Shown in pieces: positions 23,261-24,334 of a DNA stretch of 64,000 nt. How positions within the stretch are numbered: the stretch's first letter is position 1; each line of letters begins with the position of its first letter. The DNA comes from Malacoraja senta (taxonomy: Eukaryota): positions 10,418,001-10,482,000 of the forward strand of contig CM075990.1 of NCBI GenBank assembly GCA_038087875.1. Direction: 5' to 3'. The notes under the pieces were generated by a model. That model did not search any database, was not told where the DNA came from, and saw only the letters and a list, made by a program, of their open reading frames with translations. A program made the position numbers and the translations under genes.

Positions 23261-23463
23261 GAGCAATACAAAATGCTGGAGTAACTCATCGGGACAGGCA
23301 GCATCTCTGGAGAGAAGGAATGGGTGGCGTTTTGAGGGTCTCGGCCTGAAACATCACTATTCCTTCTCTCCAGAGATGCTGTCTGTCCCAGTGAGTTACT
23401 CCAGCATTTTGTGTCTATCTTCGGTTTAAATCAGCATCTGCAGTTCCTCCCTACACATTTCCT
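23261..23463. mobile_element. Fold-back PLE insertion
   Basis: Inverted pair of terminal motifs; target at(a/g)aattttacttgaa at 23245-23260 and 23613-23628. Confidence 0.8.
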
Positions 23464-23474
23464 ATGAATTTTAC

Positions 23475-23612
23475 CTCTTCTTCTTTCGTATGGCGTGCAC
23501 AGCCTAAAGTTGTTGGACAACTTGTTCTATTTGATCTTCCGTTTGTGCACGTCGAGTTGATTGCATTAGTCGAAACAGGGCGGACCACGTGAAGGTTGCA
23601 ATCTTCCACCCC
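23475..23612 (-). mobile_element. Short ribozyme-headed retroposon (SINE-like) with (GAA)n-type tail
   Basis: 11-bp TSD atgaattttac at 23464-23474 and 23613-23623; 3' end ccatacgaaagaagaag; no Pol III A/B boxes seen. Confidence 0.85.
23559..23612 (-). ncRNA. Minimal HDV/CPEB3-like self-cleaving ribozyme fold (predicted)
   Basis: GGGGUGG-AA-GAUUGCA-ACC-UUCACGU-GGU-CCGCCCU-GU-UUCGA-CUAA-UGCAAUC: P1 7 bp with G1.U wobble, P2 7 bp, P3 3 bp, 7-nt L3, J4/2 CUAA. Confidence 0.85.
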
Positions 23613-24334
23613 ATGAATTTTACTTGAAATGTGGAGATACTGTCAAAGGAGGCTGAGGTCAGGAGGTACAAGTAAATGGATTTAAATTCAGAGGCTCTTC
23701 TTTTCACGTCAGTCATTTGTATGCTTCTCTGTTGGCTTAGTCCTGCACTGTGTGAAGAGAAAGAAATATGTGTGTTTGAACTGAAAGGATACCCACTGCA
23801 GACGAGACTTCCTGCAGACTTTTCTTTTGTTCCGGTCTATGAGAAAGTACCAAAGAACATCGTAACCCATGCAGAACATGTGGTCATGCAATTATGTGTG
23901 ATGGTTTGCTAATGATAACAGGAGGTGAAATAATGAAATGTATAGGAAGGGATTCTTCTCATAGTGTCATCCACTAAAGTACTGTTGTTGAATAGAAAGT
24001 AACTGGATCAGCTTTCTCCTTGTGAGGTGGGAAACTGAAATAAACCTCAGGTTTGACCAGCAGTAGAATCGTGAATGAACACAATGCATTTCACACACAT
24101 AAAAGGGATGACAGAAAAAAACAAGCTGGATTATGAATTCACCAGCTGTGTTCCTAAGAGAAACACAGAAAGATGAGTTTATGTCTGTAAGCAGGAATCA
24201 TGTTGAGGAACATTATCTTCTGTCTGGGAACAGCGGGGTCTTTGTGACTCCAAATCAAATTCAATGACTTCAGATAACTCTTTTTCTCTTTTTAGCAGAA
24301 CTGGTCGGTTTTGCAGTAAGGTAATCCACGGCCG

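What the first reader, a model, noticed from the sequence alone, without database searches (positions are those of the whole stretch)
23475..23612. 137-bp retroposon whose 5' end is exactly a minimal HDV/CPEB3-like ribozyme
Seen: the minus strand from 23612 reads GGGGUGG-AA-GAUUGCA-ACC-UUCACGU-GGU-CCGCCCU-GU-UUCGA-CUAA-UGCAAUC. All HDV-fold elements are in order: P1 (23606-12 / 23577-83, G1.U wobble), P2 (23597-603 / 23559-65, 7 perfect bp), P3 ACC/GGU, a 7-nt L3, a single C-G P1.1 pair and J4/2 CUAA (putative catalytic C at 23569). P4 is reduced to ~5 nt, giving only 54 nt in total. G1 directly abuts the 11-bp TSD. The rest of the element is structured (gtgcaca/tgtgcac stem, aagttg/caactt hairpin) and ends ccatacgaaagaagaag. 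Established: HDV-like ribozymes define the 5' ends of R2, RTE and Ingi/L1Tc retrotransposons, and L3 UUCACGU followed by GU after P1 matches the mammalian CPEB3 ribozyme as I recall it. Inference: a promoter-less SINE-like family that cuts itself out of host transcripts and borrows a LINE RT, with an Ingi/Vingi- or RTE-like tail.
Basis: partly seen in the sequence, partly recalled or inferred. Interest (0 to 1): 0.92.

Follow-up and report, generated by a model that had tools for sequence, protein, structure and literature searches.

The report
Self-cutting RNA heads a jumping-gene family
A 137-base mobile element present in thousands of copies, and the longer jumping gene it derives from, both begin exactly at a very small hepatitis-delta-type self-cutting RNA fold, a known trick of such elements but here in an unusually stripped-down form.

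Summary
Window 23476-23612 (minus strand) is a 137-nt retroposon with a (GAA)n-like tail and an 11-bp target-site duplication that abuts G1. Its first 54 nt fit every element of an HDV-like double pseudoknot without P4.

It is a large, partly very young family. The ribozyme-core 22-mer has 2,689 exact copies and the 3' 22-mer has 5,201.

The element is an internally deleted derivative of a ~3.4-kb endonuclease plus reverse-transcriptase LINE, RTE-like by architecture. That LINE starts with the same 54 nt and ends with the same ~35 nt.

Two sister LINE families carry full-size HDV-like folds in their 5' regions, with different but complementary helices.

In two single-cell cDNA runs, 757 and 673 reads share a loose end at G1 whose consensus is the template-switch oligo (agreement 0.79 and 0.69). 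RNA 5' ends therefore lie at G1 in vivo.

The core nearly equals published P4-less "minimal" HDV-like ribozymes from gut phages.

Cleavage itself is untested, every Rfam score is below threshold, and no intact partner LINE was found.

Verdict: real, and a new variant of a known kind.

The parts
23613..23623 (-). 5' copy of the 11-bp target-site duplication (gtaaaattcat), directly abutting G1
23559..23612 (-). 54-nt P4-less HDV-like ribozyme fold (positions 1-54 of the element); predicted cleavage 5' of G1 (23612)
   Evidence: RNA 5' ends at 23612
23606..23612 (-). P1 5' strand GGGGUGG (pairs with 23577-23583; G1.U36 and U5.G32 wobbles)
23597..23603 (-). P2 5' strand GAUUGCA (pairs with 23559-23565, 7 Watson-Crick pairs); J1/2 AA lies at 23604-23605
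23584..23596 (-). P3 ACC (23594-23596), L3 UUCACGU (23587-23593), P3' GGU (23584-23586)
23577..23583 (-). P1 3' strand CCGCCCU; position 32 (23581) is G in the SINE and A in the LINE, and both pair with U5
23570..23576 (-). G37 U38 (P1.1: G37-C22, U38.U21) and the linker UUCGA that stands where P4 would be
   Evidence: PMC4836649 passages
23566..23569 (-). J4/2 CUAA; putative catalytic C44 at 23569
23559..23565 (-). P2 3' strand UGCAAUC
23541..23558 (-). Positions 55-72, shared with the LINE 5' UTR just after the ribozyme; includes stem arm CGTGCACA (23544-23551)
23513..23540 (-). Positions 73-100, middle part specific to the SINE; 5' arm AAGTTG of the hairpin at 23518-23523
23488..23512 (-). 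Positions 101-125, identical to the LINE 3' end: CAACTT, the LINE stop codon TAG (23504-23506), and stem arm TGTGCACG (23494-23501)
23475..23487 (-). (GAA)n-like tail GAAAGAAGAAGAG; its length varies between copies
23464..23474 (-). 3' copy of the 11-bp target-site duplication

Best explanation
The element is a non-autonomous, internally deleted derivative of an RTE-like LINE. It keeps the LINE's first ~72 nt and its last ~35 nt plus the (GAA)n tail.

Proposed mechanism:
1. The first 54 nt fold into a minimal (P4-less) HDV-like self-cleaving ribozyme.
2. Copies are transcribed as parts of longer host transcripts.
3. The ribozyme cuts just 5' of G1 and frees an RNA whose first base is G1.
4. 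A LINE reverse transcriptase recognises the shared 3' end and copies the RNA into a new site by target-primed reverse transcription. This gives 9-15 bp duplications that abut G1.

Shown: the fold's fit, the family structure, the shared LINE ends, the RNA 5' ends at G1, and read-through transcripts.

Inferred: catalysis, the 5'-OH chemistry, which reverse transcriptase acts, and the lack of a promoter.
For: Fold:
- All helices and core bases are in place: G1.U36, U20/G25, C22-G37, C44, A46, A47.
- My descriptor finds this site only, with 0 hits in 60 shuffles.
- The P3-L3-P3', linker and J4/2 core differs by one base from published P4-less HDV-like ribozymes. An example is ribo_nr 1782, ACC|T|TC|ACGT|GGT...GA|TTTCGA|CTAA.
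- 13 of the 127 rows in part 1 of that supplement have this TC/GA-TTTCGA type, and 'TTTCGA' occurs 323 times in the file's 7,704 rows.
- Four ribozymes of that P4-less class cleaved in vitro (PMC10879173 passages).

Position:
- 30 of 30 young copies start at GGGG with unrelated upstream flanks.
- In 20 of the 25 with a duplication of 9 nt or more, the duplication ends at G1 or overlaps it by 1-2 G.
- In an unbiased sample of 28 hits to the 3' motif, 24 were full- or near-full-length SINEs, 1 was a LINE and 3 were truncated.
- Of the 9 LINE-type junction loci fetched (L098-L106), L102 starts at G1 and L100 at G2; in 6 others the first bases are missing or changed; one (L098) has no ribozyme there.

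Conservation:
- LINE, simple deletion form, older SINE and young SINE differ in the 54 nt only at positions 8 (J1/2), 32 (A or G, both pair with U5) and 45 (second base of J4/2).
- In RNA reads, 4 of 54 ribozyme positions vary in 10% of reads or more (8, 32, 42, 45), against 15 of 83 in the rest (table 3).
- C44 is present in 20 of 20 copies chosen without regard to it.

Sister LINE families (44-57% RT identity) have full-size HDV-like folds in their 5' regions:
- L116: GGGGGAC/GCCCCCC, GGAUCA/UGAUCC, GCG/CGC, with a P4. Rfam CPEB3 model 19.9 bits, E=0.046.
- L117: GGACUGC/GCAGCCU, AUACAGA/UCUGUAU, ACC/GGU. Rfam HDV 21.9 bits and F. prausnitzii 21.3 bits.
- These give compensatory changes across families in P1, P2 and P3.

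RNA:
- In single-cell cDNA runs X21 and X22, 757 and 673 reads share a loose end at 23612 (G1). Its consensus (agreement 0.79 and 0.69, so most but not all of these reads) is the reverse complement of the template-switch oligo, with three extra G. The oligo's identity comes from a methods section.
- Bulk runs show reads that run on into diverse flanks, which indicates co-transcription.

No Pol III-type ancestry: no tRNA, 5S or 7SL match at E<=10, and ARAGORN found nothing.

Precedent: RTE and Baggins elements carry 5' HDV-like ribozymes and lack their own promoters (review PMC6765202 passages).
Against: - No cleavage was measured.
- Every Rfam score is below its gathering threshold (16 against 44 bits for this element). 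Older copies give no HDV-family hit at E<=10 in a larger search.
- Within the family there is no compensatory double change, only one one-sided change.
- P1.1 is a single G-C pair plus U.U and P4 is absent, so the rate could be low.
- G37-C44 and U38-A43 could close a UUCG hairpin and trap the catalytic C.
- Bulk oligo-dT RNA-seq shows 424 reads (X23) crossing the 5' junction into flanks and no pile of read starts at G1 (table 6: none). These libraries are unstranded, so antisense transcripts cannot be separated out.
- An RNA 5' end at G1 is also what a transcription start would give.
- No copy of the partner LINE with a long open frame was seen (longest 449 aa; at most 442 aa among the copies scored). 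No LINE shares the young subfamily's exact tail. The enzyme that made the 99-100% identical copies is therefore unidentified.
Confidence: 0.8

Rival explanations
1. G1 is a transcription start. The first ~100 nt act as an internal promoter, as in many LINEs. The HDV-like fold is then either inactive or a second function of the same sequence, as in the L1Tc Pr77/L1TcRz dual system.
For: - Template-switch reads only show that an RNA 5' end lies at G1.
- Uniform DNA 5' ends fit a fixed start just as well.
- The abundant SINE has lost the TTTT run that the LINE and the simple deletion form carry. That would suit RNA polymerase III.
- A dual promoter/ribozyme is documented for L1Tc/NARTc (abstract of PMC3383444 in the listing).
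Against: - No A/B box, tRNA, 5S or 7SL similarity.
- Sister LINE families keep the RNA fold through compensatory changes while the primary sequence differs. That points to selection on RNA structure rather than on a DNA motif.
- The catalytic C and the core bases are kept.
- Bulk reads show the copies inside longer transcripts.
Confidence: 0.1
2. The fold is real and selected, but its main role is not cleavage. It could protect the RNA 5' end, help translation initiation of the LINE frame, or mark the end of the template for the reverse transcriptase.
For: - HDV-like ribozymes of R2 and L1Tc were proposed to act like IRESes (review PMC6765202 passages).
- The LINE frame begins within about 65-120 nt of the 5' end.
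- The 5' arm CGTGCACA next to the ribozyme pairs with the 3' end TGTGCACG.
Against: - The non-coding SINE keeps the fold and the catalytic C although it has nothing to translate.
- Such roles would not by themselves place both the RNA and the DNA 5' ends exactly at G1.
Confidence: 0.07
3. The resemblance is chance. The 54 nt are simply the start of a LINE 5' UTR that happens to fit a permissive descriptor.
For: - All Rfam hits are below threshold.
- The shuffle control covers only about 7.7 Mb (both strands counted) against a 1.94-Gb genome.
Against: - Three LINE families each have an HDV-type model as an Rfam hit in their 5' region: at the 5' end itself in two of them, and the only ribozyme-family hits in those scans.
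- The core differs by one base from published minimal HDV-like ribozymes.
- The site is exactly where known retrotransposon ribozymes sit.
Confidence: 0.03

Closest known systems
HDV-like ribozymes at the 5' ends of RTE and Baggins non-LTR retrotransposons (Ruminski et al. 2011; that paper is not held, so it is known here only through review passages in PMC6765202)
   Same: A LINE with one endonuclease-plus-RT frame starts with an HDV-like double pseudoknot whose G1 is the element's first base. Co-transcription followed by self-release is the proposed logic.
   Different: Here the fold has no P4 and is 54 nt long. A short deletion derivative, not the LINE, is the abundant form. The RTE assignment rests on architecture only.
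Non-autonomous derivatives that keep the ribozyme: R2 SIDEs (PMC3414825) and NARTc of L1Tc (PMC3185411, PMC3383444); abstracts seen in the listing
   Same: An internal deletion keeps the 5' ribozyme and the 3' end that the reverse transcriptase needs.
   Different: The insertions are dispersed rather than rDNA-specific, number in the thousands, sit in a large chordate-like genome, and carry a minimal ribozyme.
Minimal (P4-less) HDV-like ribozymes and theta ribozymes of gut Caudoviricetes phages (Riccitelli 2014, recalled through citations; PMC10879173 passages and supplementary file 6)
   Same: Same field layout and lengths (P1 7, J1/2 2, P2 7, P3 3, L3 7, linker 5-6, J4/2 4). The core is nearly the same: ACC-UUCACGU-GGU, G(A)UUUCGA, C(U/G)AA.
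   Different: P1.1 has one Watson-Crick pair (GU against UC) instead of two. The host is a eukaryotic retrotransposon, whereas that paper placed about 99% of minimal forms in phages and searched only human, mouse and protist genomes among eukaryotes. The exact sequence is not in its list.
Mammalian CPEB3 ribozyme (Rfam RF00622; PMC4836649 and PMC10919898 passages)
   Same: L3 UUCACGU at positions 20-26, GU after P1 giving one G-C plus U.U in P1.1, and J4/2 CGAA in the older subfamily.
   Different: No P4, and other P1, P2 and P3 sequences. The CPEB3 model gives no hit on this element at E<=10. It does hit the sister LINE family's ribozyme (L116, 19.9 bits, E=0.046, 29 of the first 39 columns identical).

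Membership tests
HDV-like (delta-like) self-cleaving ribozymes | Nested double pseudoknot: P1 and P2 crossing, with P3 inside P1, in the order P1-J1/2-P2-P3-L3-P3'-P1'-P1.1-(P4)-J4/2-P2' | tested here: met
   P1 has 7 of 7 pairs (2 wobbles), P2 7 of 7 Watson-Crick, P3 3 of 3; unique in the window, 0 hits in 60 shuffles.
HDV-like (delta-like) self-cleaving ribozymes | Core bases: G1 in a wobble or pair at the cleavage site, U20/G25 in L3, the C of L3 paired with the G after P1 (P1.1), a catalytic C opening J4/2, then two A | tested here: met
   The roles of these bases come from PMC4836649 passages and from my own knowledge.
HDV-like (delta-like) self-cleaving ribozymes | Score at or above the curated Rfam threshold of an HDV-family model | tested here: not met
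   none. RF02682 at 16 bits against 44, E=1.1, model positions 1-74 with P4 skipped; none for older copies. I assume, but did not check, that Rfam holds no model of P4-less forms.
HDV-like (delta-like) self-cleaving ribozymes | Covariation that supports the helices | tested here: inconclusive
   Within the family there is only U5-A32 to U5.G32. Across three LINE families, P1, P2 and P3 differ yet stay complementary. That comparison rests on 2 copies of one sister family and on 1 full plus 1 truncated copy of the other.
HDV-like (delta-like) self-cleaving ribozymes | Site-specific, Mg2+-dependent self-scission 5' of G1, abolished by C-to-U at the catalytic C | not testable with these tools
   Only indirect evidence: RNA 5' ends at G1.
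Minimal (P4-less) HDV-like ribozyme motif of Riccitelli 2014 and the theta-ribozyme paper | The 13 fields as delimited in supplementary file 6, with their lengths: P1 6-7, J1/2 1-3, P2 7, P3 3, T, NN, NCGY, P3', P1', NN, linker 5-8, J4/2 C..A(+1), P2' 7 | tested here: met
   Compared by eye with the 127 rows. Every field length fits. The descriptor file itself is a picture and could not be read.
Minimal (P4-less) HDV-like ribozyme motif of Riccitelli 2014 and the theta-ribozyme paper | Two-base-pair P1.1 (NN after P1' complementary to NN in L3) | tested here: not met
   GU against UC gives G-C plus U.U. All 127 rows seen have two complementary bases. CPEB3 has the same one-pair form (PMC4836649 passage).
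RTE clade of non-LTR retrotransposons (partner LINE) | About 3.2-3.5 kb, a single frame with an AP-endonuclease and a reverse transcriptase, very short UTRs, and a short-repeat 3' tail (features recalled, not read here) | tested here: met
   - Exo_endo_phos_2 34.6 bits and RVT_1 89.1 bits.
- Length of about 3.4 kb estimated.
- The stop codon lies 27 nt before the (GAA)n tail.
RTE clade of non-LTR retrotransposons (partner LINE) | Placement within RTE in a reverse-transcriptase phylogeny | not tested
   No reference RT sequences were at hand. The Atlas gave only generic RT clusters, commonest phylum Chordata.
Pol III-derived SINEs (tRNA, 5S, 7SL) | A head related to a Pol III gene, with internal A/B boxes | tested here: not met
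   No such Rfam match at E<=10. ARAGORN found 0 genes.

The most novel reading that the evidence does not exclude
A P4-less 'minimal' HDV-like ribozyme, a form so far placed almost wholly in gut phages, arose or persists inside an animal LINE lineage. Its sister families still carry full-size, CPEB3-like versions.

On this reading, LINE 5' ribozymes of this group would be the pool linking three things treated as separate: phage minimal ribozymes, retrotransposon ribozymes, and the mammalian CPEB3 ribozyme. CPEB3 would then be a domesticated LINE 5' end.

The minimal form would also work in vivo, yielding abundant RNAs of about 140 nt that start at G1.
Probability: 0.15. Interest if true: 0.8.

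Novelty: new variant of a known kind. Interest (0 to 1): 0.58.

Why it matters
HDV-like ribozymes at retrotransposon 5' ends are established. Natural P4-less forms, however, were reported almost only from gut phages, and their origin was called open (PMC10879173 passages).

This case offers several things:
- A eukaryotic genome with thousands of copies of such a minimal form, sitting at a functionally meaningful place.
- In vivo RNA ends at the predicted cut site.
- Close relatives that still have P4. This gives a natural series for asking what P4 contributes and how a ribozyme shrinks.
- A clean case of a SINE-like family made by internal deletion of a ribozyme-headed LINE.
- A LINE ribozyme (the sister family) that is the best non-mammalian-looking match to the CPEB3 model seen here. 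That makes the retrotransposon origin of CPEB3 testable.

For annotation, the 54-mer marks true full-length 5' ends of this family.

Tried and rejected
- **Rfam at gathering thresholds** on the whole window: nothing.
- **Rfam relaxed scan on older copies:** only chance-level non-ribozyme hits.
- **Single-strand folding of the 138 nt:** z-score 0.19, uninformative because the fold is a pseudoknot. P1 and part of P3 do appear in the minimum-energy structure.
- **DNA search with the 5' 60 nt** in the genome: 0 candidates, probably because the tool skips very common words. Replaced by exact-pattern counts.
- **Ribozyme followed by non-SINE sequence:** the pattern gave one rearranged copy only (L051). 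The LINE was found from the 3' end instead.
- **First six LINE loci** (L072-L077): all 5'-truncated.
- **LINE with the young subfamily's exact tail:** 16 near-matches, none exact.
- **Long open frames in the partner LINE:** none among the copies scored.
- **Guessed 5' ends of further sister-family copies:** five of six loci missed them.
- **Our exact ribozyme in the published list of minimal ribozymes:** absent.
- **Earlier notes of this scan:** nothing on this genome or sequence.
- **Papers:** Ruminski 2011 is not held. One literature search was too loose to be of use.
- **Prior description of this family:** searches for HDV-like ribozymes with SINE, RTE, shark, or non-autonomous plus vertebrate found none. 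Dfam and Repbase could not be consulted.
- **Read-through ratio in bulk run X23:** 424 reads cross the 5' junction against 819 at the 3' junction. I considered this as a sign of cleavage and set it aside, because the libraries are unstranded and depth differs along the element.
Full report
**The observation.**
- On the minus strand, from 23612 downward, the window reads GGGGUGG AA GAUUGCA ACC UUCACGU GGU CCGCCCU GU UUCGA CUAA UGCAAUC. A further 83 nt follow, ending in GAAAGAAGAAGAG.
- The same 11 bases (gtaaaattcat) lie directly before G1 and directly after the tail.
- A descriptor I wrote for the fold asks for a 7-bp P1 with G1.U, P2 of 5-8 bp, a 3-bp P3, U and G at L3 positions 1 and 6, C at L3 position 3 facing a G after P1, and C..AA before P2'. 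It found this site alone in the window and nothing in 60 dinucleotide shuffles of the window on both strands.
- Rfam's curated thresholds give nothing in the window. A relaxed scan of 301 nt gives one ribozyme hit, HDV-F-prausnitzii, on exactly 23559-23612. It spans the whole model with P4 skipped, but reaches only 16 bits against a threshold of 44 (E=1.1).

**It is a family.**
- The window's genome (1.94 Gb, 6,182 contigs) gave 1,114 first-look candidates for the 138 nt. All 40 that were scored are 99-100% identical from position 1 to 136-138.
- The ribozyme-core 22-mer occurs 2,689 times exactly and a 22-mer of the 3' part 5,201 times. The reversed controls give 0.
- All 30 fetched young copies start at GGGG after unrelated sequence.
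- 25 of those 30 have a duplication of 9 nt or more. It ends at G1 in 12, overlaps G1 by one or two G in 8, and leaves one extra base in 5.
- The first 20 genome hits of the core 22-mer show older subfamilies. J4/2 reads CGAA in 12, CUAA in 3, CAAA in 3, CCAA in 1 and is disturbed by an indel in 1. Position 8 is A or G. The C that opens J4/2 is present in all 20.
- In the first 6.35 Mb of contig C1, 28 hits of the 3' motif comprise 24 full- or near-full-length elements, 3 truncated ones and 1 LINE.

**Where it comes from.**
- Two loci with the 3' motif continue upstream into a coding sequence (...HIVNDCP...) that stops at the TAG inside CAACTT-TAG-GCTGTGCACGCC, 27 nt before the (GAA)n tail.
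- A protein query from this region found 2,078 candidates. A DNA query 1.65 kb further upstream found only about 60. This is the usual 5'-truncation profile of a LINE.
- The longest copies reach about 3.4 kb. They encode an endonuclease (Exo_endo_phos_2, 34.6 bits) and a reverse transcriptase (RVT_1, 89.1 bits).
- Their 5' ends are the same ribozyme. L102 starts GGGGUGGGAGAUUGCAACC... after unrelated flank and continues ...AAUGCAAUC AACCCGACGUGCACAAACAAAUAGAU into LINE-specific sequence.
- A junction pattern in that 5' UTR has 77 hits of two kinds. One kind is the LINE. The other is a plain deletion form in which about 96 nt of LINE 5' end are joined to about 38 nt of LINE 3' end (L107-L113).
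- The abundant 137-mer is a further modified version of that deletion form. It is therefore not a Pol III-type SINE.
- Consistent with that, there is no tRNA, 5S or 7SL similarity.

**Is the fold meaningful?**

*Within the family.* The 54 nt are nearly frozen.
- LINE, deletion form, older SINE and young SINE differ only at position 8 (J1/2), position 32 (A in the LINE, G in the SINEs, both pairing with U5) and position 45 (second base of J4/2).
- In RNA reads only 4 of the 54 positions (8, 32, 42, 45) vary in 10% of reads or more, against 15 of the other 83 (table 3).
- This is conservation, not covariation.

*Across families.* Covariation comes from sister LINE families found with the RT query at 44-57% identity. 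Some of them have open frames up to 986 aa.
- One sister family is represented by L116 and L115, whose flanks diverge just upstream of the G run. It begins GGGGGAC UAU GGAUCA GCG UUCUCGU CGC GCCCCCC GU, then a 25-nt P4 region, then CCAA UGAUCC.
- Rfam's CPEB3 model aligns to that sequence end to end: 19.9 bits, E=0.046, 29 of the first 39 columns identical.
- A second sister family is represented by L117, with a 5'-truncated second copy L122. It has GGACUGC/GCAGCCU, AUACAGA/UCUGUAU, ACC/GGU, L3 UCCCCGU, a long P4 and CCAA. It is hit by the HDV and F. prausnitzii models at 21-22 bits.
- P1, P2 and P3 thus change sequence between families and stay complementary, apart from one A.C mismatch in P1 of each sister family.
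- All these Rfam scores are below the curated thresholds. The 5' boundary of the second sister family rests on a single full copy.

**Comparison with known minimal forms.**
- Passages of the theta-ribozyme paper state that minimal HDV-like ribozymes lack P4. They also state that about 99% of them lie in Caudoviricetes phages, that only human, mouse and protist genomes were searched among eukaryotes, and that four examples cleaved in vitro (PMC10879173).
- Its supplementary file 6 lists 7,704 sequences cut into 13 fields.
- The window element fits every field length. Its core ACC|U|UC|ACGU|GGU ... G|UUUCGA|CUAA differs by one base from entries such as ribo_nr 1782 (...GA|TTTCGA|CTAA).
- 13 of the 127 rows I read have this TC/GA-TTTCGA type, and the word TTTCGA occurs 323 times in the file.
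- The one deviation is P1.1: one G-C pair plus U.U instead of two pairs. The CPEB3 ribozyme has the same arrangement (PMC4836649 passage).
- The exact sequence is not in the file.
L3 is UUCACGU followed by GU in the Rfam consensus and in a mouse primer placed 18 nt from the cleavage site (PMC10919898). J4/2 is C57-G58-A59-A60.
- The CPEB3 model nevertheless does not hit this element. The shared bases are largely the family-wide core.

**RNA.**
- Twenty of the 24 listed public runs hold 80% or more of the sampled words of the 138 nt. They come from 11 studies, with eight coded organism labels and one metagenome.
- I laid two bulk oligo-dT runs and two single-cell runs of one organism label on window 23380-23720.
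- The unique flanks have no depth, while the element has depths of several hundred. The reads therefore come from the family at large.
- In the single-cell runs the best-supported loose end at the element's 5' boundary (757 and 673 reads, agreement 0.79 and 0.69) reads CCCATTCACTCTGCGTTGATACCACTGCTT on the plus strand. This is the reverse complement of the template-switch oligo given in a methods section.
- In that consensus the oligo's GGG is followed by the element's own four G. Strand invasion at an internal GGG would have left three or four G, not seven. Most of these cDNAs therefore ended at G1.
- The bulk runs show reads running from the element into diverse flanks at both junctions: 819 and 812 reads at the 3' side, and 424 at the 5' side in X23. 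The copies therefore sit inside longer transcripts.
- The tool reports no pile of read starts in the bulk runs (table 6). Those libraries are unstranded, so the degree of cleavage cannot be read from them.

**Mechanism and its weak points.**
- The best reading has four steps: co-transcription, self-cleavage 5' of G1, recognition of the shared 3' end, and target-primed reverse transcription.
- That 3' end consists of the stem TGTGCACG, which pairs with CGTGCACA next to the ribozyme, plus the (GAA)n tail.
- Catalysis, 5'-OH ends and the lack of a promoter are inferred.
- A start site at G1, possibly combined with a ribozyme as in L1Tc, is the main rival.
- The enzyme source for the young, 99-100% identical copies is not identified. 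Copies of the partner LINE that I saw are broken, with a longest frame of 449 aa. No LINE shares the young tail exactly. Related families with long frames exist, but I did not examine their 3' ends.

**Novelty.**
- The kind is known. Known cases are 5' HDV-like ribozymes of RTE and Baggins, R2 and L1Tc, and ribozyme-keeping deletion derivatives such as R2 SIDEs and NARTc. This rests on review passages and abstracts in the listing.
- New here are the P4-less form in a eukaryotic retrotransposon, its amplification to thousands of copies, the in vivo 5' ends, and the side-by-side presence of full-size relatives.
- My literature searches found no description of this. Dfam and Repbase could not be checked, and Ruminski 2011 could not be read.

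Noticed in passing
L116 (G000:C4234:69028-69828, minus strand, about locus 352-425) and L115: A sister LINE family (51-53% RT identity, open frames up to 978 aa) begins with a 73-nt full-size HDV-like fold. Its best Rfam match is the mammalian CPEB3 ribozyme (19.9 bits, E=0.046, 29 of the first 39 columns identical).
   Followed up: partly
L117 (G000:C4794:29037-29837, plus strand, 404-500); truncated copy in L122: A second sister LINE family (about 45% RT identity, open frame up to 986 aa) has an HDV-like fold of about 95 nt with a long P4. It is hit by the HDV and F. prausnitzii models at 21-22 bits. Its 5' boundary rests on one full copy.
   Followed up: partly
window 23544-23551 and 23494-23501; LINE loci L102, L052: CGTGCACA just after the ribozyme is the reverse complement of TGTGCACG at the LINE 3' end. 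The full LINE RNA could therefore pair its two ends. The deletion derivative keeps both arms, and the older SINE subfamily extends the stem to 10 bp.
   Followed up: no
L086 (about 2100-2200) and L093 (about 2290-2350), in LINE orientation: An inverted copy of the ribozyme segment is joined to the LINE body at an internal point, like the 5' inversions that twin priming makes in L1.
   Followed up: no
L107-L113 and LINE 5' UTR loci against the SINE copies: The LINE and the simple deletion form contain GUGUUUUGG (a run of four T), while the abundant 137-mer has no TTTT. This may be chance, or it may bear on which polymerase transcribes it.
   Followed up: no
window 23476, single-cell run X21 (table 7): 313 reads continue beyond the (GAA)n tail into T-rich letters on the plus strand, that is A-rich on the element's strand, though agreement is low (0.4). 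In the bulk runs the same place shows mixed flanks. This could be oligo-dT priming near the tail or added A tails.
   Followed up: no
window 23380-23463: A different interspersed repeat lies right after the 3' duplication. It has several-fold higher RNA depth than the element and many reads that join opposite strands, so it is a foldback-like repeat.
   Followed up: no
L005 (G000:C1527, 5' junction): About eight extra G lie between the duplication and G1 in one young copy. Five other copies have a single extra base there. These look like untemplated additions at the 5' junction.
   Followed up: no
L102, minus strand, locus 44-90: The LINE 5' UTR holds a hairpin GGCCCUUCCCAGGGCC. Rfam's histone 3' stem-loop model matches it at chance level (17.6 bits, E=0.26).
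   Followed up: no
supplementary file 6 of PMC10879173, rows 3045 and 4494: Among 7,704 published phage-type minimal ribozymes, one has the same P1 as the LINE form (GGGGTGG/CCACCCT) and another has the same P2 (GATTGCA/TGCAATC). Chance is likely, given the size of the list.
   Followed up: no
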